Shown here piece after piece: positions 2,869 through 23,437 of a stretch of DNA of 24,140 nt. The notes beneath the pieces are model-generated. The model searched no databases, had not been told where the DNA came from, and was given only the letters and a program-made list of their open reading frames with translations. Position 1 is the stretch's first letter. Every line of letters begins with the position of its first letter. The stretch lies in IMG/VR virus record IMGVR_UViG_2713896901_000009, positions 1 through 24,140 of that record. The stretch is one strand, 5' to 3'. The position numbers and the translations under genes are program-made. The stretch is from a virus. Taxonomy: Duplodnaviria; Heunggongvirae; Uroviricota; Caudoviricetes.

Positions 2869-3792
2869 TCAGTAGTTATGTACTGAAGGAGGCAATTCTT
2901 TATTCTTAAGTCTCATCCATGCGGAAAGATTCGTTGGTCCGTCTGGCTCATTGATATCAACATCTCGTGTGTGGTTGATTAAAACGTCTCTCGCCATTCC
3001 GATAACATACGAGAACTCATGACCGTAGTCGTAGCATCTGCCGGAATAGTTCGATTGAATTTGTTTTAATGCCGGATACAGTTCGCGGAATAATGCCTGT
3101 GAACGGTTGGCATAATCCCATAACCATACAAGGCTGTTTGCTTCTTTTGCAGAAAGCTCGTTGGTTTTCTTCTCTTGTTTTCCAATGAACTCACCTTCAA
3201 GTGGAACTCGAGCTGCAAGTGATAGTGCTTCGGTAAACTGCTCCTCACTGATTTCTTTGTACGAACATCCAAAATGGGATTTTAGTGACGACCACATGGT
3301 GATCATCGCCTTAGCCTGTTTTTCTTTTGGCAGAGACTGACCGCGACTCATGACGAGTTGTTTAATGGCTTCCTGCTGTTCAGTGGTGATTTTCCCCGGC
3401 AATGCCTTTTTAGCTTTGCGCGGGTTAATCACATGGCCTTTAGTCCAGTACTCGTAGAGCACATCGTCACACTCTTCCTGATACTGGATTACCTTGTCGC
3501 GGATTTCAGGGCGGACTTTGTTAGGACTGATGGTTTGCAGCCAGCCATTCAGTTTACGCAAAGCAAGGCAAATCATGGTCTGCACACCACCAACTGAAGG
3601 TATTGCGATTTCCACAATACCTTTAGCAAATCTTTGTTTTAACTTTGTAAACTGTGAAGCCCAATCCATACCCATGCCTTCAACGATAGGTTTCATTGGG
3701 GTATACGGTTCGCCGTTGTGATTGACGACATAAAGCTCTGCGCCGTGGAATGGCACGTTGATAGTAGATACTGCTGTTGCTATACTTTTCAT
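2869..3792 (-). CDS. ant: Antirepressor (Ant-like)
   Basis: 307 aa, ATG at 3792, directly downstream of the arc-like gene and upstream of tailspike, the P22 immI position of ant. The N-terminal region ([11 protein letters not shown]...[13 protein letters not shown]) resembles antirepressor N-terminal domains. Domain assignment is from memory. Confidence 0.65.
3758..3786 (+). promoter_or_regulatory. Candidate sigma70 promoter antisense to the ant 5' end (Psar-like)
   Basis: TTGATA (3758-3763), 17-bp spacer, TATACT (3781-3786). The predicted start near 3793 is directly opposite the ant start codon. Confidence 0.4.
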
Positions 3793-3860
3793 GTCAGTTT
3801 TTCCTCAAAATTTACTGGCGATTTAAGCCCGAGCTACTCGCAATAGCTTGGGCTTTACTC
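3793..3860 (+). ncRNA. Candidate sar-like antisense RNA covering the ant ribosome-binding site and start
   Basis: From the promoter above to a 12-bp stem-loop (AAGCCCGAGCTA / TAGCTTGGGCTT, 3825-3855) followed by TTTACTCATT. About 65-70 nt, the same size, position and orientation as P22 sar RNA. On the minus strand the hairpin has no U-tract, so arc-ant read-through is allowed. Confidence 0.4.
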
Positions 3861-4005
3861 ATTCTGGACAAACAATTCCATCCTTAGCTACTGACTCCTT
3901 TAGTCTCCTCAATACCTCATTACTGAACGACCGATCATCCTTTTTCGCGGACTGCTCCAAAGCCTTTTCCAGCCATTCTGGCATCCTTAATGTCTTAACT
4001 TTCAT
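3859..4005 (-). CDS. arc: Arc-like ribbon-helix-helix repressor (48 aa; below the ORF-track size cutoff)
   Basis: ATG at 4005 with AAGGAG 5 nt upstream, TGA at 3859-3861. Translation MKVKTLRMPEWLEKALEQSAKKDDRSFSNEVLRRLKESVAKDGIVCPE carries the Arc/Mnt RHH signature (LRMP ... RSxSNEV..RL.ES). Confidence 0.8.
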   Translation of the reverse strand: MKVKTLRMPEWLEKALEQSAKKDDRSFSNEVLRRLKESVAKDGIVCPE

Positions 4006-4023
4006 TTTTGCTCCTTTGTATGT

Positions 4024-4073
4024 GGTACGCATACATAGTATTTAGGTACGCATTGATAGTCAATAGATACCTA
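4024..4073. promoter_or_regulatory. Operator-like repeats in the arc/mnt divergent control region
   Basis: Direct repeats GGTACGCAT at 4024-4032 and 4045-4053 (21 bp apart, flanking the -10 of the arc promoter). A 31-bp imperfect dyad TAGGTA...ATTGA-TAG-TCAAT...TACCTA at 4043-4073 overlaps the -35. Confidence 0.45.
4035..4063 (-). promoter_or_regulatory. Candidate promoter for arc-ant (Pant-like)
   Basis: Minus strand TTGACT (4063-4058), 17-bp spacer, TACTAT (4040-4035), about 30 nt upstream of the arc ATG. Confidence 0.45.
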
Positions 4074-4109
4074 CATATCCTGTGGTAAAAAATTATTCAG
4101 GATGCGCCG

Positions 4110-4361
4110 ATGTCTGATCGTAAGTACAAAAACCCTCAAGTGAATCTGAGGCTTCCTGTAGAGATAAAGGAGCGTCTTATTGAACTAGCTGAGGCTAATT
4201 CTCGTTCATTAAATGCTGAGATGGTCGCAGCACTTGAAGCATGGACCGAAAAAAACAAACACATTCAAGCACTAGATCTTGCAACTATAGCATCGCGACT
4301 GATAGAGCTTGAGCATGATGTTGAGAAGTTAAAATGTATGCATGGCAATGGTGAAAAATGA
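4110..4361 (+). CDS. mnt: Mnt-like ribbon-helix-helix repressor
   Basis: 83 aa. The N-terminus PQVNLRLPVEIKERLIELAEANSRSLNAEMVAAL matches the Arc/Mnt RHH fold pattern. Divergent from arc as in P22 immI. Confidence 0.8.
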   Translation: MSDRKYKNPQVNLRLPVEIKERLIELAEANSRSLNAEMVAALEAWTEKNKHIQALDLATIASRLIELEHDVEKLKCMHGNGEK

Positions 4362-4675
4362 AACGTATCGCTATCCTATTGCTCCTGTGTCTCTCGAGCA
4401 TAGCTAACGCAGAAACAAAATCAGACGATAGCAGTTTTGATGAAATACAAGGCCTCATGATAGCTTCGAAAATGGCTGGTATGTGTGGTGCAATCAAACA
4501 AATGGCAATATTCCAAGAATCTACAAACATGCCGGGTGGGAATGAATTCTTACAGAGATTCCTTACTACAGAGCAAGCAAGGCTTGGGATGACTCCGCAG
4601 CAATTTCTTGAAGCATGTCAGAAATCAATCTCTATTTATACCACCTATTACAATATGAGCTCTGAGAAAAAATAG
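4358..4675 (+). CDS. Small secreted protein of unknown function, translationally coupled to mnt
   Basis: 105 aa. ATG overlaps the mnt stop (ATGA). Sec-type signal peptide MKRIAILLLLCLSSIANA with AxA site; mature part has two Cys. No family recognised. Confidence 0.6.
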   Translation: MKRIAILLLLCLSSIANAETKSDDSSFDEIQGLMIASKMAGMCGAIKQMAIFQESTNMPGGNEFLQRFLTTEQARLGMTPQQFLEACQKSISIYTTYYNMSSEKK

Positions 4676-4684
4676 ACTAGGATC

Positions 4685-4870
4685 TCAACAGCTTCCGCGT
4701 CCCTGAGTAATTCTGTTGCGGATTTGCTTCTTGCGGTGGTTTAGGCTGGAGAGCTTGGCTTCTGCTTCTGATATTTGCGCATCCAAATCTTTTAGTTCAA
4801 GATCTGAAAGGCGCTGGTCAAGCAGGGTTTGGTTTAACTCAATGTTGTTCAGACGTTCTTCTATAGTCAT
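4685..4870 (-). CDS. Hypothetical small coiled-coil protein
   Basis: 61 aa, ATG at 4870 with AAGGT 7 nt upstream; heptad-like Leu/Glu-rich sequence. Lies on the late-transcript strand. Weak. Confidence 0.3.
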   Translation of the reverse strand: MTIEERLNNIELNQTLLDQRLSDLELKDLDAQISEAEAKLSSLNHRKKQIRNRITQGRGSC

Positions 4871-4895
4871 ATTGTTACCTTAGTGGGAGATTAGT

Positions 4896-5120
4896 ATGAT
4901 TTCTGCTATTTTATCGGTGCTGCTAGCGTCATTATTCATCGGAGTGGTGTTGATCTCCCCGATGCCAATAATATCAATATTATTCATCTTGATGATCGGC
5001 TGGTTGTGGCTTAAAAAGGCAAGAAACGATTATTTTTTATCCATAAGAGATAAGCAATTGGAGCTTTTCCGCTTGGGGTACACTGGCGACTTGCCATTCT
5101 TAACATACCAAAAAAAGTAA
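4896..5120 (+). CDS. Small two-transmembrane-helix membrane protein
   Basis: 74 aa. GGGAGA 5 nt upstream of ATG. Two hydrophobic segments (ISAILSVLLASLFIGVVLI and IISILFILMIGWLWL), basic C-terminal tail. Followed by an intrinsic terminator. Confidence 0.55.
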   Translation: MISAILSVLLASLFIGVVLISPMPIISILFILMIGWLWLKKARNDYFLSIRDKQLELFRLGYTGDLPFLTYQKK

Positions 5121-5126
5121 TAATCA

Positions 5127-5149
5127 AGCCGGGTCACTCCGGCTTTTTG
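5127..5149 (+). terminator. Rho-independent terminator after the 74-aa membrane-protein gene
   Basis: AGCCGG-GTCACT-CCGGCT followed by TTTT, 7 nt after the stop. It overlaps the last codons of the convergent minus-strand gene. Confidence 0.6.
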
Positions 5150-5499
5150 ATATGTCGCTCGCAGAACTCAACAAGCCTGCTCATTAAGTAGCAGTAAGTC
5201 TCATTGGCTCTTCCTGGTTCAACATCAACGCCGACCCTTGAGCAGATATCGAATGCCATGTGAGCGCACTCATGGGCAATAGTAGATAGTTTGCCATTGA
5301 ACACGCCTATCACATGCAAAACACCATTCTCGCTACTCATTGTATGAGACGCTCCGTTGGCGTCCGAGTCATGCACGTCCACGCCAAGTTTTTGATGCAG
5401 GCGTTGCCATTCTGGAAAGTCTCTGCAAAACACAATTGTACCGCTCTCAAAGAGCGGAACAAGCATTTTTGGTACGTTTCCAATGTTAACTTTTTTCAT
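5134..5499 (-). CDS. HExxH-motif protein, possible small zinc metallopeptidase (ImmA/IrrE- or SprT-like)
   Basis: 121 aa. Motif KLSTIAHECAHMAFD (H-E-x-x-H), with a further Glu/Tyr cluster (ETYCY) downstream. Start is ATG at 5499 with AGGA 4 nt upstream. Family assignment is tentative. Confidence 0.45.
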   Translation of the reverse strand: MKKVNIGNVPKMLVPLFESGTIVFCRDFPEWQRLHQKLGVDVHDSDANGASHTMSSENGVLHVIGVFNGKLSTIAHECAHMAFDICSRVGVDVEPGRANETYCYLMSRLVEFCERHIKKPE

Positions 5500-5529
5500 G
5501 GTATCCTGCTCAAAACTAAGGAGGTTGGT

Positions 5530-5736
5530 GTGAAGCGATTGATTGTAGGGCTTGCTGTAGTTGCTTTTTTTATCTTCTCGGCTTCGACTGGTTACGGAGT
5601 TAGATTCTCATCATCAACAATCAACGATAAGATTGAATGCAGATACATAAGCGTTTCCGGCAAATTCTCCAGAAATTACTGGTATTCAGATAATGGAATC
5701 ATGGGTATTAGCAATTGCCCTTTATTTGACAGATAG
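5530..5736 (+). CDS. Small protein with N-terminal signal/anchor sequence
   Basis: GTG at 5530 preceded by AAGGAGG at 5-nt spacing. 68 aa with hydrophobic N-terminus KRLIVGLAVVAFFIFSASTG. The ORF-track upstream extension is antisense to the HExxH gene and looks non-coding. Confidence 0.45.
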   Translation: MKRLIVGLAVVAFFIFSASTGYGVRFSSSTINDKIECRYISVSGKFSRNYWYSDNGIMGISNCPLFDR

Positions 5737-5793
5737 CCATCCGTGGCTTTATGGAGATTAACATGGTAACAGTTGGTTGGATTATCGCGTTCC

Positions 5794-7950
5794 TTATTGC
5801 ATTTTGGGTTGGTCGTCACTGGCTGTAGTCTCTTGCTGAGATAACCATGTGATAAACCCCGTGCGAGCAATAGTTTTTGCTTCATCTGTTGATAGGGTTT
5901 TCTCCCATCTCTTAAATGCATTAGATCGCATCAGCTTCCTTTCTATTACGCGTCTCACTTCTGCTCTGTCTACTGGTGCGTTTTGCAGGCGAAATAGCAT
6001 TGATTTAAACTCAGGAGAGGACAGTAGAGCATCAGCAGCCTTTATCCTGCTTGTTTTCCCTGACATCAATGCAGCCGATATTACCCCTGAAGCACCTGCT
6101 CCCAAAAGGCCAAATGAGCTTGTAATTCCTTCCGCCGCAATAGCTTTTGAGGCTATTCCATAAATTTTTGCGAGACTACCCTTTTCTTTCAGAAAGTTAT
6201 TAACTTGCTGATCCACAAGGCTACTAGCATACTGCTTACCAGTATTGAGTCTATTCATAGCCTTAGCTGCTTGATAAATCGTATCAAGGCGCTTTGATGC
6301 ATCTGTGCCAATAGCATCACGGAGAGCCTTCATATTGGCCCCATTGCGTGACATTCCGTTATACCATTTTACAAATCCATCAACTCCTAATTGCTGACCA
6401 GGTGATTTGGCATAGCTGGTAAATGCTTTATTCATTGAGGTGAGCGCAACTTCCTGCCGCATATCCTTTGGAATCGACTTCATTAATTGCCTAAAGTCGC
6501 CACCGTTTCCTTTTGCCATATTAACAACAGCACTTTCAACTTTTGGAATTGCTGATTGCTGAAGTTTTCTACCCAAGACGGTTACAGCATCATCTTCAAT
6601 TGATTTTCGTTTTTTTACCAACTCCTTACCAAGCGTCCATAATTCCCCTGCGCCATATTTTTCTGCGACAGCCTGTTGGTCATCTGTTATGGCTGCATAT
6701 AACTTTTTAAGAACACCTGTTTCTTCATCCTTGAATGGACCAGAGCCTTTGCCAATAGCTTGTCCAACCTGCTTTCTAGCGAGATCTAAACGCCCATACG
6801 TTGGCAAGGTGTTTGGATCAAGTCGGTTCAATGTCCGCTTCATTATTGGAGATAATTCATCAATTCCACCTATGTCATCAGCAAAATCCTCTAAAAAATT
6901 CAATGTATTAGTTGCCTCAATCCGGTCTCTTACAGGAACCTTTTCGGCAATTTTGTTGTAGATGTTATCTGACTGATTTTGTAATGATGAAATGGTTTTA
7001 TCAAAATTATCTGCAAGCCTGTCAGAAACCAGTTGCTTATCAAGGTTTCCCCCAAATGAAGTTATCATTTCATCAGCTTTTCTTCCTAATTCAGTAATAA
7101 AACGCTTATGCGCCTCACTAATCTCTGTTCCAGGGAGACTTGCCACTGCATTATCAAGAGCTCTGACAGCAGGATTATTAGAGATCATGCCTGGAGTGGC
7201 ATAATTTTCCAGTTCTAGCTCACGAATAGCATTTATCGCGTTAAAATCAGGATTAACTTCATCGGCGAAATCTTGAATAGCTCGTTGCCCACCAATAAAT
7301 TTATTATCCATTGCACCAGCAGCTTTCTTTAACGTTGCTTTAGATGATTTACTGCCCATCCCTACGGATGAGCGATAAATATCTCCGGCACTATTTTTAA
7401 TTTTTCCTGCAATCTTCCCAAGCGCTGGACCAACAATCTCGGCTACAGGGCCAGCCACAGCGCCAATAGCAGCGCCGGAAGCAACATCGCTATTTGTTCC
7501 ATTGGCTACAATAGCCCCTTCTCCAGCACCAAGCCCTGCGGCGGCAGCCAGCCTTGCCGCCCCTTTCGGAACCTGAGAAATAATCCCACCACCACTAACA
7601 AATGGCGCTGCTTGTCCAACGAACTCACCAACATCTTGTGCGGTTGATGGTTTTGCCGCTAACTTCTGCTGTAGAGACTGAATTGCGGCTTGCTCTTCTG
7701 GTGTCATATCCTGAAACAGGCCAACACCTTTACCAACATCCATCAATCCACTGAGAACGCCATACATAAAACGGTCGAAACCGTTAGCATTATTAACAAC
7801 ATTTTCCTGTCTGGAATTTTCCCCTGGTGAAACCAAAGGTGATTGCTGCTGTTCTGGTTGGGCATCAAGCACAAAACCATCAGGAAGCTGTGAGTTATCA
7901 GGCTGTTCATCCAGAACAAACCCCTCTGGTAAACCTACATTGGTTGCCAT
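5794..7950 (-). CDS. Ejection (internal virion) protein, P22 gp16 position
   Basis: 718 aa, Ala/Gly-rich. Last of the three ejection-protein genes in P22 order; overlaps the gp20 stop. Confidence 0.8.
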
Positions 7951-15681: not shown

Positions 15682-17850
15682 TTATTGAGGTGTCTCGGCT
15701 ACTCCGCCGGAGGGGATTTGAACTTGACGCATAAGATTCGCGAAATCCATGCGTTGTGAATGAGTCTGGTCTGCATCTTTAAGAAGCAGCTCAGCGTTAG
15801 CACGAGCATCTTTGCTGCGCTGTTGCTGGAATTGACCTACGAGCTTGAGGTACTCACGCAGTTCTGCCTGCTTGTCGAGGTCCATATTGTTGAAGATTTC
15901 TGCAATCTTCGCGGCGTTGAGTTGGTTTTGGGCTTCAACCTTGGCGGCTTCAACCTGAATCTGCGCCTGTTGGTTCTCTGCCTTGAGCAATTCAGCCTGA
16001 CCTTGCAGAAGGATACCCTGCGCCTGAATTTGCTCTGCTGATGGCTGCTGCGGCTGTTGTTGTGCCTGCTGCACCATCTCCATCTCTTCAGGTGTTTCTG
16101 GTTTCTTCAGCCCCATCATCACCAGTTGCTTGTTCGCGTACTCTCGCATCATCTCGACGCCTTTACCGTCAAGCAGCGTGAAGTATTGCAGCATCAGCAT
16201 CTGGAACTCTGGAGTACCTTGCGGAACCTTGGTGAGCAACTCCTGAATCTCTGCGCGGTTCTGTTCCTTCATACTCTGGAAGGATGGTCCGACGTCTGTA
16301 TAGCACTCATAGCGACCGCGAATGTCGTTGAGTGTGACCACATTGCCGGACTGGTAATCGACAACTTGCGCATAGAGTTGAACGTCTTTCTCGCTTCCAT
16401 CTTCAAGTGTCAGCGTTACATGACGAGGAACGTCATAAATATCGTTGACCATTGAGGCATAAATCTCGCCATCACGTCGCATTGCGGTAGCCAGGTTATC
16501 CTGAAACACGTATGTCTCAAGGTCTGCCCGCATGTTCAGTTGATTGACGGTATCGAAAGCGACCTGAGAGTTTGCTGCCTGCGCATCCACACCAAGACTA
16601 GCCACCTCTTTCACTGCGTTGGTGGCAGCCTCAAGCATGTAAGCGTTGGCTTGCGGCACTTCAGGGTTTTCCATGTAGGAGATTGGACCAATCGGCAGGT
16701 CGTTACCGTTTTCATCGGTCTTGTTCTGCAGATAGTACGGATAGTCATCATTTCCACCGTACATGTATTCGTAGCCTTCGATTTGCTCAGGGAAGAAGGT
16801 CGGTTTCTTCTTCGGTGAACGAGCAACAATATCGGCGTTGAATGACATGATCATGTTACGAAGGCGCTGACCGTCTTTCGTCAGCCTTACCACTCCTTCG
16901 TAGCACTCCTTGTCACCAGCGAATGACCATTCGCCATACACTGGAACGATTGGAATATGCTCTCCGGCTATCTTCTCGCGGTCTTTCAGTATCTGCGTGC
17001 AGGTGATGATCGACTTATACACACGCCGACGCTTCACCTTGCGCTCTGCTACCTTAATGAATCCACGATTAGCCAGGTCGTCGATAACGTCTTTAATATC
17101 CTGCTGGTAATAGCTGACCGGCTCACCTGTCAGCGGGTCGCGGTAGATGAAAACTTTCTCTTTCTTCTCTTCTACCTCGTAATACTCAGCGACGTAGACG
17201 ACATCATTCGATACCCACGGAAACAGCCATGTATCGTTTGGATTCTGGAAAGATGGCAGCGTGTCAGGATCAATACCGTAATCCTCTGCGAACTCTTTCC
17301 AGCCATTGCGTGACAAGGCGTTAATCACCGTGCAGTGCTTAGCGTCGCTCTTATCCATCTGCTTGCTGTTGGCGTCCCATATGACGTGTGAGCAGGCCTC
17401 ATGGATTGGCAGGCGTCTGATTACCTGATTGTTGCTTGTTGGGTCGTTGTCTTCGTACTGTGTGACCAGACGCCATGCACCAACGCCGGACTCTATCTGC
17501 TCACGAACGCCAACGTTAACGGCAATCTTTGCCGTGTTATGGCGCATATCAGTACGATACATCCCCATCAACACATCGGCTGCATCAGGATTAGCGCCGT
17601 CTTTTGGTCGGAAGAGAACGTCGATAGGGTTCCGGCGCATCTCTGCGACCAGTTTCCTGACCACCGGGCGAACAACATCGAATTGTCCGCGATATTGCAG
17701 GGTAGTGTAGTTTGATAGCCAGTCATCCCATTGGCTTATGCGACTGAAGTATAAATCGTTAGAAGCTTCTGTTCTCGCCTCGTCGGAAGACATCCAATCA
17801 ACATCGAATGCTTGCAGTATCTTATTTAATCGCTCTGCGTTGTCAGTCAT
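15682..17850 (-). CDS. Portal protein, P22 gp1-like
   Basis: 722 aa. Segments such as [29 protein letters not shown] and the Gln-rich C-terminal barrel region match P22 portal as recalled. Confidence 0.9.
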
Positions 17851-17900: not shown

Positions 17901-18401
17901 GTGAGCCATCCATCTATAGAAGATATAAGGAAAAATTTCACATACGATGCTGAAACCGGAATTTTGTACGCGGCTAATCGCACAAGGAGGACAGACCTTA
18001 ACGGCAAGCCCGTTGGGTGCCAGCATGGAAACGGATACCTTGATGTAAGGCTTGGTAAAAAACTGTACTACGTGCACAGAATTTGTTTTGCGCACTACTA
18101 TGGTTACTGGCCCGAAGCAGTAGATCACATAAACGGAAACCGTGCTGATAACCGCATCTGTAATCTTAGAGATGCCAATAAGCAGTTGAACGGACTAAAC
18201 CGTGGCATGGATTGCGACAATTCAACTGGATACAAAGGAGTTTCCTATCGCAAGGACACAAATAACTACATGTGGCAATTTGTGGTAGAAGGCAAGAAAT
18301 ACACAAAAAGCGGATTCGCTACAGCATTAGATGCATACAAGCATAAGGTAGCATTTATTAACGCTCTGAATTCCGCTGCCTCTGAATTTCTCAAGCCGTA
18401 A
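17901..18401 (+). CDS. HNH homing-type endonuclease with AP2-like DNA-binding region
   Basis: 166 aa. GTG start with AGGAGA 7 nt upstream. Motif YYVHRICFAHYYGYWPEAVDHINGNRADNRICNLRDA is an HNH signature. On the opposite strand to all flanking structural genes, filling the terminase-portal junction with 9 nt and 50 nt gaps. Confidence 0.8.
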   Translation: MSHPSIEDIRKNFTYDAETGILYAANRTRRTDLNGKPVGCQHGNGYLDVRLGKKLYYVHRICFAHYYGYWPEAVDHINGNRADNRICNLRDANKQLNGLNRGMDCDNSTGYKGVSYRKDTNNYMWQFVVEGKKYTKSGFATALDAYKHKVAFINALNSAASEFLKP

Positions 18402-18410
18402 CAACAGTAT

Positions 18411-19913
18411 CTATCTTGTTGACCGTGCGATGGGCCTGATTGGGGCTGGTATCTTTTTCTCTTTTGGTTTTTTGATGTCGCGCATCATTTTTGCGAAGCG
18501 GCGCATCATGTATGCATAGCGAACGGCGGATAGCACGTCATCGTTAAGCTTGACGATTTTCCCGTTTTCATCACGGTGATAGAGGCGGAACTCCTCAAAG
18601 AATGGCTCACAGGTGTTGAATACTTTGAAGCGACCATCGAGCATCATGTCGCGCAATTCAGTGATGCCAGGCTCCACAGCGTTACCGCCATCAGGCCATG
18701 TCGCATGCTCCTGCAACATCATAAAACCAGCGTCGGCATACTGCCCTTTGAGCTGCTCACCGCCGCCCTTCTCATGCTGGTTTCCGTCATGAGGCCATGC
18801 GGTTGGCACTTTATGCGCCCATGATTTAACGGCTCCCCAAGCCTGAACGGCTGTTTTTTCTTTCGCCTTCCACACGCGTGAAACGTAGATTGTGTCTGCA
18901 TCTTTATCCCACCAAAGCTGAACATGCGCCTGCGGGTGATCCCATCCGAAATCCATCCCGCCAATTACGTAGAAGTGATCAGGACACTCGAACGGCTGAC
19001 ACTTAATCGTCTCTTCCGGTATCTGGAAGATTCGCCCGCTACCCATCGTAGGAATACCGCGAGCACGCGCCTCTCTCTCATGCTCAGGATAGGATGCGAT
19101 GATTTGCTCTTTCTGCTCGTCGGTGTAGTGCTCAGCGTCATAGATGGTCATGTTGACCACTTTCTGAGACTTGCTGGGATCCTTCAGGAACTTGGTAACA
19201 ACGTCAGACATCCCCATCAGCGGGGTAAACGTCAGAATTGAGAATTGCCCGTATTTGTTGGTACGGGTAAGCCCTTCGCCATAAATGCTGTATGGTGGTT
19301 CTTCGTCAAACCACACGCCGTGGATTGTGTCACCCTGCCAGCGAGCGCGGCCTTGCGAGTATGGTTTGAAGTAGCAGATTGAAATGCCATCTTCAACGCC
19401 ATCAGCCGTGTGATGCTTAACCAGAAGATGATCAACAAGGTTCGGAAAGAAAGGAGACTTCTTCCAGCTAATGATGTCTTCTTTCGGTATGGAACCGTAG
19501 CCAGGCTCATCATTCTCTTCGATACGACCGCACAGGATGCGTTGAGTCGTTTTGGTTACAGTCTCGTTTGTCTCTCCACCAATCCAGAAGACAACAGGCT
19601 CATAGAAACGCTTACCTTTCCACTCCCCACCATATTTACCATCAGCCGGATATCCTTTTGTTCCTGGATAACGTCCGGTAAGGTGAAACGCGACTTCAGC
19701 AGCACCAGTAAATGACTTACCAAGCTGGTTACCAGCCATAAAACAGCGCTCTGGATAGTCATGCCCGGCGTCGATGAACTCACGCTGTTTGCTGTATGGC
19801 GTAAATTCATATAGCAGGTGTGTGTTCCGGTAGTTCTCTTCTTCTTCGAGTTGCTCGAGCAATTCTATTTGCTCTTCGTCGCTCAAGTTATCAAGAATCG
19901 CGTCCAGTTCCAC
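18411..19913 (-). CDS. Terminase large subunit, P22 gp2-like
   Basis: 500 aa, with ATPase and nuclease regions. Overlaps the terS 3' end by 23 nt. Confidence 0.9.
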
Positions 19914-23281: not shown

Positions 23282-23357
23282 TGGTGCTGGTTAACGGACT
23301 TGAACCGCTACCCATTCGCTTACAAGGCGACTGCTCTACCATTAGAGCTAAACCAGC
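23282..23357 (-). tRNA. tRNA-Thr (anticodon UGU)
   Basis: 76 nt. 7-bp acceptor stem GCTGGTT/AACCAGC, D-arm GCTC-TAATGGTA-GAGC, anticodon loop CTTGTAA, T-arm AGCGG-TTCAAGT-CCGTT (one G.U), discriminator A, encoded CCA. Confidence 0.85.
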
Positions 23358-23362
23358 ATGTT

Positions 23363-23437
23363 TGGCGGGACAGCGTGGACTCGAACCACGATAAGAAGGT
23401 TAACAGCCTTCCGTAATGACCTTTATACGACTGACCC
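23363..23437 (-). tRNA. tRNA-Asn (anticodon GUU), with noncanonical features
   Basis: 75 nt. Perfect anticodon stem GAAGG/CCTTC with loop CTGTTAA, T-arm CGTGG-TTCGAGT-CCACG, encoded CCA. But there is a T-T mismatch at acceptor pair 4-69 and only a 3-bp D-stem. Confidence 0.6.

What the first reader, a model, noticed from the sequence alone, without database searches (positions are those of the whole stretch)
4358..5736. Island of small cargo genes in the slot where P22 carries sieA
Between the last ejection-protein gene and the mnt/arc/ant module sit five short genes with envelope-type features. These are a signal-peptide periplasmic protein, a 2-TM membrane protein, a coiled-coil 61-mer, an HExxH protein and a signal/anchor 68-mer. 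Three are on the plus strand, opposite to the late operon, each with a strong SD and in one case its own terminator, which is the pattern of lysogen-expressed morons. The region looks AT-richer than the structural genes by eye (not computed). Small envelope proteins here are plausible blockers of DNA entry by a second phage, but none resembles a family I can name.
Basis: partly seen in the sequence, partly recalled or inferred. Interest (0 to 1): 0.65.

Follow-up and report, generated by a model that had tools for sequence, protein, structure and literature searches.

The report
Swappable small-gene cassettes replacing phage P22 sieA
In this P22-like prophage of Escherichia albertii, the known variable region next to the immunity genes carries five real small genes; one, a YobH-family mini-protein, sits exactly where P22 has its superinfection-exclusion gene sieA, but none has been tested for function.

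Summary
The five ORFs exist as described. The region is the "ant moron" of P22-like phages, whose variability was published in 2008. It is five separately exchangeable one-gene modules, not one island.

- **Match to P22.** Window 5112-5532 is 97.6% identical to P22.
- **orf68 (5530-5736).** It starts at the same GTG as P22 sieA and is a YobH-family protein (Pfam PF13996, above threshold).
- **The sieA slot.** In about 200 related loci, at least 14 unrelated ORFs begin at or within 4 nt of that start codon. Thirteen have a signal peptide, lipobox or membrane helix.
- **orf105 and orf74.** orf105 is a secreted three-helix protein whose start overlaps the mnt stop. orf74 is a 2-TM ORFan. Both lie in the mnt transcription unit.
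- **orf61 and hkcC.** They lie on the late-operon strand, have no hydrophobic segment and are under strong purifying selection.

Lysogen expression is inferred from identity to P22 signals. Blocking of DNA entry rests on position and envelope targeting only. Verdict: a real, moderately interesting new combination in a known kind of locus.

The parts
4035..4081 (.). Divergent promoter-like sites between arc and mnt (minus strand 4063-4035, plus strand 4053-4081), overlapping an 18-nt-arm inverted repeat at 4039-4077. This is the P22 Pant/Pmnt/operator layout and the presumed start of the mnt-orf105-orf74 transcript.
   Evidence: layout compared with the P22 annotation. Consensus matches only, not shown to be active.
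4110..4361 (+). mnt-type Arc/ribbon-helix-helix repressor, 83 aa. It is the first gene of the lysogen-phase unit.
   Evidence: Pfam Arc E 3.1e-10. Same position and length as P22 mnt.
4358..4675 (+). orf105: signal peptide (MKRIAILLLLCLSSIANA|E) followed by a three-helix domain with conserved Cys43 and Cys87. Its ATG overlaps the mnt stop (ATGA).
   Evidence: Family alignment. AF2 model, core pLDDT 80-90. phrog_19844. A 47%-identical homologue sits at the sieA start codon in other loci and in phage Kapi1 as Kapi1_059.
4685..4870 (-). orf61: 61-aa coiled-coil protein with no membrane segment, on the late-operon strand and antisense inside the mnt unit.
   Evidence: dN/dS 0.02-0.18, for example 12 synonymous against 1 non-synonymous change. 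phrog_7586. Present or absent independently of its neighbours. Pfam XhlA only E 0.056, below threshold.
4896..5120 (+). orf74: one 42-residue hydrophobic stretch read as a 2-TM hairpin, plus a basic C-terminal tail. It occupies the place of P22 orf59a directly before t_mnt. Probable gene, unproven.
   Evidence: ORFan: one cluster among 1.84 billion representatives. Called as a gene in the E. albertii record but not by PGAP in E. coli.
5126..5148 (+). t_mnt intrinsic terminator, 23/23 identical to the annotated P22 t_mnt.
   Evidence: -12.6 kcal/mol, z -3.2.
5134..5499 (-). orf121 = P22 hkcC, a 121-aa cytoplasmic-type protein. His76-Glu77-x-x-His80 and Glu100 are invariant, as are four cysteines. 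Possibly a minimal zincin-like metallopeptidase. It lies on the late-operon strand.
5469..5499 (+). PsieA promoter, 31/31 identical to the annotated P22 PsieA. It lies inside the 5' end of hkcC on the other strand.
   Evidence: In P22, 85 bp upstream of sieA is enough for exclusion from a single copy (PMC10883804).
5500..5532 (+). Conserved 'socket': 5' leader, AAGGAGG Shine-Dalgarno and GTG start codon. The 21-mer AAAACTAAGGAGGTTGGTGTG is at 5512-5532. Unrelated ORFs begin at this GTG in other prophages.
5530..5736 (+). orf68: YobH-family protein with an N-terminal signal or anchor segment and a roughly 45-aa domain with two conserved cysteines and a G.GI..CPL motif. It replaces sieA from the shared start codon.
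   Evidence: Pfam PF13996 at 34.3 bits against a cut-off of 27. 29% identity to E. coli K-12 YobH, E 5e-10. Alignment. dN/dS 0.26. NCBI name 'YobH family protein'.
5736..5747 (+). Short hairpin motif GCCATCCGTGGC that starts in the stop codon. The same motif follows unrelated cassettes (P22 sieA, a 109-aa type, both YobH variants). At best a weak terminator.
   Evidence: 21 of 84 loci. (-7.3 kcal/mol, z -1.7).
5748..5845 (.). Right edge of the exchangeable segment. Compared with prophages that carry a 75-aa 2-TM cassette, homology resumes at about 5845, inside the last 17 or so codons of gp16.

Best explanation
Window 4358-5736 is the variable part of the 'ant moron' (immI/sieA region) of a P22-like prophage. 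The window is 100% identical over 6.3 kb to an Escherichia albertii contig. The region is a mosaic of five single-gene modules arranged by transcription phase.

Plus strand, lysogen phase:
(1) Pmnt drives mnt, then orf105 (translationally coupled; a secreted three-helix protein), then reads antisense across orf61 into orf74 (2-TM protein) and stops at t_mnt.
(2) PsieA drives orf68, a small secreted or membrane-anchored YobH-family protein. It replaces sieA from the same Shine-Dalgarno sequence and GTG.

Minus strand, late phase: hkcC (orf121, a conserved HExxH...E protein) and orf61 (coiled coil). Both are probably read as part of the late transcript that continues to the tailspike gene.

The sieA position is a fixed expression socket made of promoter, leader, ribosome-binding site and start codon. 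Many unrelated, almost always envelope-targeted ORFs are exchanged behind it. [quoted passage not shown] The same may hold for orf105 and orf74.

Shown: gene anatomy, homology to P22 signals, cassette exchange, purifying selection, YobH-family membership. Inferred: lysogen-phase transcription, envelope location. Speculative: the exclusion function itself.
For: - Anchoring to P22: window 5112-5532 is 97.6% identical to P22 13765-14185, which holds t_mnt, hkcC and PsieA. PsieA is 31/31 and t_mnt 23/23 identical.
- Shared start codon: orf68 and sieA both follow AAGGAGGTTGGT and start at the same GTG.
- Slot diversity, sample 1: 83 sequences anchored on hkcC gave 11 unrelated ORF types, ten starting at that GTG and one (a 161-aa lipoprotein) at an ATG 4 nt downstream. 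All have a signal peptide, lipobox or TM helix (the 99-aa type fell below my hydrophobicity threshold and is counted on Kapi1_059's DeepTMHMM signal annotation).
- Slot diversity, sample 2: 119 loci found with the 21-nt socket gave 13 types, 12 with a hydrophobic N-terminus read by eye from the sequences; the three types seen only here were not run through the scan.
- Independent shuffling: one gp16 type occurs with 4-5 cassettes and one cassette with 4 gp16 types. On the mnt side, orf105, orf61 and orf74/orf59a occur in five combinations. Module edges in E. coli prophages fall at gene borders.
- Real genes: dN/dS well below 1, family alignments.
- YobH membership.
- Control: only 2 of 17 late genes in the window, the lysis genes, have N-terminal hydrophobic segments.
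[quoted passage not shown] The region is a moron in rapid flux and the late transcript passes through it (PMC2629481). A lysogen-expressed exclusion factor of another type (STnc6030 RNA) maps to the same gene 16/gene 9 junction in BTP1 (PMC7067206).
Against: - No expression data exist for this prophage. In the related Kapi1 lysogen, mnt was not detected by RNA-seq (PMC12922286), so the mnt unit may be weakly transcribed.
- orf68 has no sequence or topology similarity to SieA: one hydrophobic segment against four, and no FxRYPxEAxxFNK motif.
- The only experimental datum for the YobH family is a roughly 3-fold host-cell invasion defect of a Salmonella yobH mutant (PMC6726612). That points to host interaction rather than phage exclusion.
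- None of the five proteins matches a PADLOC defence model.
- One slot type (140 aa) is hydrophilic.
- The coding status of orf74 is unproven.
- The hairpin after orf68 is weak, so the transcript may run antisense into gene 16. An RNA-level effect cannot be excluded.
Confidence: 0.6

Rival explanations
1. The plus-strand genes are lysogenic-conversion factors that serve the host, for example in host-cell interaction or envelope stress, and are not anti-phage. orf68 would add a second, prophage-borne YobH-type function to the bacterium.
For: orf68 is a true YobH-family member. Salmonella YobH is a HilD/SprB-controlled invasion factor whose mutant invades about 3-fold less (PMC6726612). The host, E. 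albertii, is an attaching-effacing pathogen (own knowledge). No defence-model hit.
Against: The same socket carries SieA, a proven exclusion protein, and the same junction in BTP1 carries another exclusion factor. The molecular activity of YobH is unknown and the invasion effect is small. orf68 is only 29% identical to chromosomal YobH. YobH-like cassettes always abut ejection gene 16 in P22-like prophages.
Confidence: 0.22
2. The active product of the sieA socket here is an RNA. The PsieA transcript runs past the weak hairpin and is antisense to the 3' end of gene 16, as proposed for STnc6030 in BTP1. The orf68 ORF would be incidental.
For: The hairpin after orf68 is weak: -7.3 kcal/mol, z -1.7, 12 of 200 shuffles as stable. 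Gene 16 converges 58 nt downstream. STnc6030 gives BTP1-specific exclusion and its escape mutants map to the 3' end of the gene 16 homologue (PMC7067206).
Against: orf68 shows protein-level constraint: dN/dS 0.26 across 63%-identical copies, 14 invariant columns including both cysteines, shared even with chromosomal YobH. It has a strong Shine-Dalgarno sequence and a conserved start codon. No Rfam family lies in the island.
Confidence: 0.08
3. Part of the 'island' is not functional cargo. orf74, and perhaps other small ORFs, are chance or decaying ORFs in mosaic linker DNA left by recombination in a high-flux region.
For: orf74 has no relatives beyond near-identical copies and no Pfam or PHROG family. 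PGAP omits it. It lies in 38.7% GC DNA, where long ORFs are less rare. The 2008 paper notes degraded genes in some ant morons.
Against: orf61, orf121, orf68 and orf105 all show purifying selection or a conserved family. orf74 has a GGGAG ribosome-binding site, a clean hydrophobic-hairpin-plus-basic-tail design, and ends 5 nt before t_mnt exactly as P22 orf59a does. It is 99-100% conserved in 12 IMG/VR loci that differ in their flanking mnt-side genes, slot cassette and gp16 type.
Confidence: 0.1

Closest known systems
Phage P22 'ant moron' (immI region plus orf59a, hkcC and sieA, between genes 16 and 9; Villafane et al. 2008, PMC2629481)
   Same: Same position between the gp16-type ejection gene and the tailspike gene. 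Same mnt/arc/ant module. hkcC is 99% identical in protein. t_mnt and PsieA are identical. Same strand logic.
   Different: sieA is replaced by a YobH-family gene. orf59a is replaced by orf74. orf105 and orf61 are added between mnt and the terminator. mnt and arc are of another sequence type, with no reportable tblastn match to P22 mnt.
P22 SieA superinfection-exclusion protein (Leavitt et al. 2024, PMC10883804)
   Same: Same promoter, leader, ribosome-binding site and start codon. Same neighbour, gene 16. Both have an N-terminal hydrophobic segment and are predicted envelope proteins.
   Different: No sequence similarity. 68 aa with one hydrophobic segment against 164 aa with four. No FxRYPxEAxxFNK motif. 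No exclusion phenotype has been tested.
Chromosomal YobH (E. coli b4536; Salmonella invasion factor, PMC6726612)
   Same: Pfam PF13996 above threshold. Shared GYGV, two cysteines and the G.GI..CPL motif. Similar size and an N-terminal hydrophobic segment.
   Different: Only 29% identical. Encoded in a prophage under PsieA rather than next to mgrB and kdgR. Lacks the last 8 residues of the chromosomal protein's C-terminus. Its regulation by HilD/SprB is unknown.
BTP1 STnc6030, a lysogen-expressed exclusion factor at the gene 16/tailspike junction (Owen et al. 2020, PMC7067206)
   Same: Same genomic junction in a P22-like prophage. Transcribed opposite to the late operon in the lysogen. Linked to the 3' end of the gene 16 homologue.
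   Different: It is described as a non-coding antisense RNA. The window's unit encodes a conserved protein. BTP1, as the paper describes the locus, has no intervening immI genes.
Small prophage or phage envelope proteins that block entry (HK97 gp15, T4 Imm/Sp, T5 Llp, phi80/N15 Cor, TP-J34 Ltp); own knowledge plus review PMC11436027
   Same: Small signal-peptide, lipoprotein or TM proteins made by a resident phage and acting at the envelope.
   Different: No sequence relationship was tested or expected. These are functional analogies only.

Membership tests
YobH family (Pfam PF13996), for orf68 | Score at or above the Pfam gathering threshold over most of the model | tested here: met
   34.3 bits against a cut-off of 27, E 2.5e-8, model positions 6-68 of 70. 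Precomputed PF13996 on all five homologue clusters, which NCBI names 'YobH family protein'.
YobH family (Pfam PF13996), for orf68 | N-terminal hydrophobic segment followed by a small domain with two conserved Cys and a C-terminal CPL motif, shared with E. coli K-12 YobH | tested here: met
   BLASTP against b4536: 29% identity, E 5e-10. Invariant G21 Y22 V24 C37 Y39 G44 G56 G59 I60 C63 P64 L65. Hydrophobic segment at residues 1-24.
YobH family (Pfam PF13996), for orf68 | Chromosomal context (mgrB-yobH-kdgR) and HilD/SprB control as in Salmonella | tested here: not met
   Context is a P22-like prophage under PsieA. Regulation cannot be tested with these tools. Context is not part of the Pfam definition.
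SieA superinfection-exclusion proteins (types A, B, C), for orf68 | Sequence homology, including the FxRYPxEAxxFNK motif | tested here: not met
   tblastn of P22 SieA against the window: best E 2.1. No motif in any of the six frames. Types B and C were covered only by the motif search; their sequences were not queried.
SieA superinfection-exclusion proteins (types A, B, C), for orf68 | Multi-pass inner-membrane topology (4-5 TM helices) | tested here: not met
   One hydrophobic segment in orf68, against at least three hydrophobic regions in P22 SieA, by the same scan.
SieA superinfection-exclusion proteins (types A, B, C), for orf68 | Location between gene 16 and gene 9 homologues of a P22-like prophage, expressed from PsieA | tested here: met
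   Same GTG, Shine-Dalgarno sequence and 31/31 identical promoter.
SieA superinfection-exclusion proteins (types A, B, C), for orf68 | Blocks DNA injection by P22-like phages | not testable with these tools
   Needs plating, lysogenisation or K+ efflux assays.
P22-type 'ant moron' (PMC2629481), for the whole region | Non-morphogenetic genes inserted between the gene 16 and gene 9 homologues, with their own promoters and terminators, varying between related phages | tested here: met
   gp16-type gene at 5794-7950, tailspike at 666-2690 (Head_binding domain), ant/arc/mnt in between. P22-identical PsieA and t_mnt. Variation across loci.
Zincin (HExxH) metallopeptidases, for orf121/hkcC | Invariant HExxH plus a third zinc ligand downstream | tested here: met
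   H76, E77, H80 and E100 are invariant in 18 sequences down to 43% identity. Glu lies 20 residues after the second His.
Zincin (HExxH) metallopeptidases, for orf121/hkcC | Zincin fold, or a profile match to a peptidase family | tested here: inconclusive
XhlA family (PF10779), for orf61 | Pfam score above threshold and a C-terminal membrane helix | tested here: not met
   14.1 bits against a cut-off of 34.7. No hydrophobic segment. The 'XhlA' labels on longer annotations of the same ORF in Kapi1 and E. coli come from an upstream start.
Known anti-phage defence systems (PADLOC-DB 2.0), for all five proteins | Match to a defence-protein model | tested here: not met
   No meaningful hit; there were only coiled-coil noise matches for orf61. 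The test lacks power here, because SieA itself has no PADLOC model.

The most novel reading that the evidence does not exclude
The PsieA socket is a dedicated, ORF-exact exchange site: a conserved stretch of about 40 nt holding the -10 element, leader, ribosome-binding site and GTG, often followed by a conserved hairpin after the stop codon. It would hold a natural library of at least 14 unrelated small envelope proteins, each blocking the gp7/gp20/gp16 DNA-delivery conduit, or a host factor that the conduit needs, in a different way. On this reading YobH-family proteins, including the chromosomal yobH of enterobacteria, are at root phage-entry blockers.
Probability: 0.18. Interest if true: 0.7.

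Novelty: new member of a known kind. Interest (0 to 1): 0.45.

Why it matters
About two thirds of sequenced P22-like phages lack sieA (PMC10883804). What sits in its place was not addressed in the sections of that paper that I read, and a literature search found no study of the alternatives. This analysis shows that the place is rarely empty. A conserved promoter, ribosome-binding site and start codon drive one of many unrelated small envelope proteins, here a YobH-family member.

If even some of these proteins block DNA delivery, they are ready-made natural probes of how the P22 ejection proteins cross the periplasm and inner membrane. They would also give a first biochemical handle on the uncharacterised YobH family. 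If instead they serve the host, this is a prophage-borne copy of a Salmonella invasion-factor family in the emerging pathogen E. albertii. Either result is testable with simple plating and invasion assays.

Tried and rejected
- **Family scans of the five proteins.** NCBIfam and PADLOC gave nothing usable.
- **Family scans of nine other slot proteins, including SieA.** Pfam and PADLOC gave nothing. The PADLOC negative is therefore uninformative.
- **orf105 structure.** The three-helix model has no significant PDB neighbour; the best Foldseek E-value is 1.6.
- **orf74.** An exhaustive HMMER search found only its own cluster, and dN/dS has no power.
- **orf61 as an XhlA haemolysin-family protein.** Rejected: below the Pfam threshold and no TM segment.
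- **Non-coding RNAs.** Rfam finds none in the island, only two tRNAs at 23285-23437. The 5' leader of orf68 has no structure beyond shuffled controls.
- **'AT-rich island' as a sign of foreign origin.** Rejected as a distinguishing feature, because the neighbours have the same GC content.
- **Linkage of cassette type to gp16 type as a functional signal.** Not supported, because cassettes shuffle against gp16 types. The right-hand border merely falls in the last 17 or so codons of gp16.
- **Expression data.** Per-gene expression values for Kapi1_059 to 062 could not be obtained, because no supplements are held.
- **Literature.** A search for 'hkcC' returned only unrelated acronyms among the 10 of 95 papers listed.
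Full report
**1. What is in the window**

ORF listing and direct reading confirm five short ORFs between the last ejection-protein gene and mnt:

| Name | Coordinates | Strand | Length |
|---|---|---|---|
| orf105 | 4358-4675 | + | 105 aa |
| orf61 | 4685-4870 | - | 61 aa |
| orf74 | 4896-5120 | + | 74 aa |
| orf121 | 5134-5499 | - | 121 aa |
| orf68 | 5530-5736 | + | 68 aa (GTG start) |

The neighbours are a 718-aa gp16-type gene (5794-7950, -), mnt (4110-4361, +), arc (3859-4032, -), ant (2869-3792, -) and a tailspike with the P22 head-binding domain (666-2690, -). The window is a P22-like (Lederbergvirus-type) late region on the minus strand. It is 100% identical over 6,342 bp to Escherichia albertii assembly GCA_001514705.1, contig BBVL01000005.1.

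**2. Anchoring to the P22 map**

Window 5112-5532 is 97.6% identical to P22 13765-14185. In the annotated P22-pbi record that stretch holds three things:
- the mnt terminator t_mnt;
- an unannotated 121-codon minus-strand ORF (125 codons in the ORF listing, which starts at an upstream GTG);
- the sieA promoter PsieA, ending at the sieA start codon.

The ORF is intact in P22, 99% identical in protein to orf121, and annotated as hypothetical in other P22 records. The phage epsilon34 genome paper names the P22 genes of this interval as sieA, hkcC and 59a (PMC2629481), so by position orf121 is hkcC. In the window t_mnt is 23/23 identical and PsieA 31/31 identical to P22.

orf68 begins at the same GTG as sieA, after the same AAGGAGGTTGGT, and similarity to P22 stops one base after that codon. 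So only orf68 occupies the sieA position. orf105, orf61 and orf74 occupy the space where P22 has orf59a, between mnt and t_mnt. hkcC is a resident P22 gene, not cargo.

**3. Are they genes?**

- **orf121/hkcC.** 37 nucleotide variants in related loci give 6-9 synonymous against 1-2 non-synonymous changes, dN/dS 0.03-0.05. Homologues reach 43% identity, in Rosenbergiella and Klebsiella among others. H76, E77, H80 and E100 are invariant, as are four cysteines.
- **orf61.** dN/dS is 0.02-0.18 in its minus-strand frame.
- **orf68.** dN/dS is 0.26 against copies that are 63% identical.
- **orf105.** Close copies differ only at synonymous sites. A family down to 43-47% identity keeps a core of K38, AGMCG, KQM, FQE, MPGG, RFL, RLGM and a second Cys.
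- **orf74.** It cannot be judged. Only near-identical copies exist, one cluster among 1.84 billion representatives. PGAP skips it in an E. coli copy, while the E. albertii record calls it. Its ribosome-binding site, its hydrophobic stretch with a basic tail, and its stop 5 nt before t_mnt make it a probable gene.

**4. What the proteins look like**

- **orf68.** It passes the Pfam YobH threshold at 34.3 bits against a cut-off of 27. It aligns with E. coli K-12 YobH at 29% identity, E 5e-10, sharing GYGV, two cysteines and G.GI..CPL. Only five homologue clusters exist in the 5.8-billion-protein set, all named 'YobH family protein' or left unnamed. The 113-aa database version is the same ORF called from an upstream in-frame ATG.
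- **orf105.** It has a signal peptide (..SIANA|E) and a three-helix domain, AF2 core pLDDT 80-90. It has no significant PDB neighbour.
- **orf74.** It is one 42-residue hydrophobic stretch, broken by prolines at residues 22 and 24, so read as a 2-TM hairpin, followed by a charged tail.
- **orf61.** It is a coiled coil without a membrane segment. The XhlA label is not justified.

Three of the five proteins are thus envelope-type, not all five.

**5. Cassette behaviour**

*Sample anchored on hkcC.* Eighty IMG/VR loci were found with hkcC, and all are 98-100% identical in that protein. With P22, two other phage records and the window, this makes 83 sequences. The ORF at the sieA position falls into 11 unrelated types:

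| Type | Count |
|---|---|
| 161-aa lipoprotein (LLAGC lipobox) | 18 |
| SieA type A | 15 |
| 129-aa signal-peptide protein | 12 |
| 75-aa 2-TM | 8 |
| 109-aa TM plus coiled coil (MLEW-type) | 8 |
| 109-aa TM plus coiled coil (MLEI-type) | 6 |
| 106-aa N-terminal TM | 5 |
| 62-aa 2-TM | 4 |
| YobH-like 68 aa | 3 |
| 149-aa TM-anchored | 2 |
| 99-aa homologue of orf105 | 2 |

The junction is exact...AAAACTAAGGAGGTTGGT|GTG|variable. The lipoprotein type is the one exception. Its leader diverges after AAGGAG and it starts at an ATG 4 nt further on.

It gives 13 types at the same GTG, 12 of them with hydrophobic N-termini. It adds a 116-aa multi-TM type, a 42-aa TM type and one hydrophilic 140-aa type. 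These three were classified by eye from the sequences, not by the scan.

*The socket without hkcC.* In more than half of those loci hkcC is absent upstream. About 40 nt (..T(A/T)TCAT-N-TGGTATCCTG-NNN-AAAACTAAGGAGGTTGGTGTG) are still conserved.

*The 3' side.* A hairpin GCCnTCCnTGGC, starting in or just after the stop codon, follows several unrelated cassettes. Compared with loci carrying the 75-aa cassette, the right border lies at window ~5845, within the last 17 or so codons of gp16.

*Shuffling against flanks.* The 615-aa gp16 type occurs with 4-5 cassettes. The lipoprotein occurs with four gp16 types. The window's 718-aa gp16 type occurs with the 75-aa cassette, with YobH68, or with the 129-aa gene plus YobH68.

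*Divergent YobH copies.* The more divergent YobH-like genes (65% identity) also always abut this gp16 type, but as the second gene behind another cassette.

*The mnt side.* orf105, orf61 and orf74/orf59a occur in five combinations. E. coli prophages share mnt through hkcC at 98%, but similarity ends at window 5535-5540. The orf105 family therefore occurs in two different sockets, after mnt here and at the sieA GTG in Kapi1 (Kapi1_059) and other loci.

*Rarity.* Only one GenBank phage record, an unverified S. Kentucky phage contig, has the whole set.

**6. How it most likely works**

*Shown in P22.*
- mnt and sieA are prophage-expressed.
- 85 bp upstream of sieA is enough for full exclusion from a single copy.
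- The late transcript passes through this region into the tailspike gene (PMC2629481).

*Inferred for the window.*
- Plus-strand genes are lysogen-phase. Pmnt-like and Pant-like divergent promoters with an 18-nt-arm inverted repeat lie at 4035-4081.
- The orf105 start overlaps the mnt stop (ATGA).
- No convincing terminator occurs before t_mnt; the one weak plus-strand site at 4916-4930 lies inside orf74.
- orf68 has the P22 promoter and leader.
- Minus-strand genes (hkcC, orf61) are late-phase.

*Speculative.* The three envelope proteins act on incoming phages at the envelope. The argument rests on three points. The socket holds a proven exclusion gene. At least 13 of 14 alternatives are envelope-targeted, against 2 of 17 late genes in this window. 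And the same junction in BTP1 encodes another lysogen-expressed exclusion factor (PMC7067206).

*Against.*
- There is no similarity to SieA.
- mnt was not detected in a Kapi1 lysogen (PMC12922286).
- The only phenotype known for a YobH protein is a roughly 3-fold invasion defect in Salmonella (PMC6726612).

I put the anatomy and cassette account at about 0.9. Lysogen expression of orf68 is about 0.7. An anti-phage entry role for at least one of the three is about 0.4. Together these give about 0.6 for the account as worded.

**7. Known and new**

*Already known:*
- the region as a high-flux 'ant moron', with ten types in sixteen genomes (2008);
- P22 hkcC, orf59a, t_mnt and PsieA;
- that most P22-like phages lack sieA.

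*Not found in the literature searched:*
- ORF-exact replacement at a conserved start codon;
- the count and envelope bias of the alternatives;
- a YobH-family occupant of the slot;
- the orf105 family occurring in two sockets;
- the invariant HExxH...E signature of hkcC.

The finding is therefore a new member or combination in a known kind of locus. It gives a useful, testable lead rather than a new kind of system.

**8. Composition**

The island is 42.3% GC against 50.8% for the head genes. This equals gp16 (43.6%), immI (43.2%) and the tailspike (42.4%), so low GC does not single it out.

Noticed in passing
window 17901-18401 (+): A 166-aa ORF with an HNH_3 endonuclease domain (PF13392, E 2e-13). 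It lies on the strand opposite to the late operon, in the 560-bp gap between the large terminase (18411-19913) and portal (15682-17850) genes, and GC dips to 0.43-0.45 there. It looks like a free-standing homing endonuclease inserted in the morphogenetic cluster, where the 2008 survey reported no insertions. Phage Kapi1 has an HNH gene between ant and the tailspike instead.
   Followed up: partly
window 5500-5532, and loci L093-L211: The stretch of about 40 nt ending in the sieA-slot GTG is conserved even in the 84 of 115 untruncated socket loci where upstream similarity to the window ends within 30 nt, so that hkcC is not upstream in its usual position. It reads ..T(A/T)TCAT-N-TGGTATCCTG-NNN-AAAACTAAGGAGGTTGGTGTG. 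It behaves as a portable promoter-proximal, leader and RBS unit, or as a recombination linker. Its RNA fold is no better than that of shuffled sequence.
   Followed up: partly
window 5736-5747; L001 3916; L028 3394; L087 4207: A 12-nt hairpin motif GCCnTCCnTGGC directly after the stop codon is shared by unrelated slot cassettes (P22 sieA, a 109-aa type, both YobH variants) and is present in 21 of 84 loci. Together with the fixed GTG it brackets the ORF exactly.
   Followed up: partly
proteins P0043 and P0047 (alignment A2): Some orf105-family proteins are chimeras. They have the N-terminus (signal peptide region) of the sieA-slot version joined to the C-terminal two thirds of the mnt-linked version, which indicates recombination inside the gene family.
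   Followed up: no
window 5314-5736 (+): The frame of orf68 stays open for 72 codons upstream, overlapping hkcC on the other strand. Databases carry a 113-aa 'YobH family protein' (P0001) called from an upstream ATG. The conserved Shine-Dalgarno sequence and GTG show that the 68-aa form is the real one.
   Followed up: yes
loci L086-L090 (E. coli prophages): YobH-like genes of 65% identity are always the last plus-strand gene before a 717-722-aa gp16. They come second, behind a 129-, 154- or 122-aa ORF, so the slot can hold two cassettes in tandem.
   Followed up: partly
BTP1 prophage (literature, PMC7067206), not in the window: STnc6030 was classed as non-coding because it has no ORF above 60 aa, and its escape mutations cause amino-acid changes at the 3' end of the gene 16 homologue. 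SieA escape mutations also map to the gp16 C-terminal region, and the slot holds proteins as short as 42-62 aa. A small-protein effector in STnc6030 therefore seems worth re-checking.
   Followed up: no
window 23285-23357 and 23366-23437 (-): Two tRNA genes lie near the high-coordinate end of the window, upstream of the late genes. The BTP1 and Kapi1 papers describe tRNA genes at the start of the late operon in those prophages.
   Followed up: no
window 4110-4361 compared with L002 and L051: The nearest phage-record relatives (the S. Kentucky phage contig and one IMG/VR locus) share orf105 through gp16 at 98-100%. Their mnt and arc are of a different type (29-41% identity). The window's mnt type recurs with other cassettes, for example in L007. 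The immunity genes are thus exchanged independently of the cargo.
   Followed up: partly
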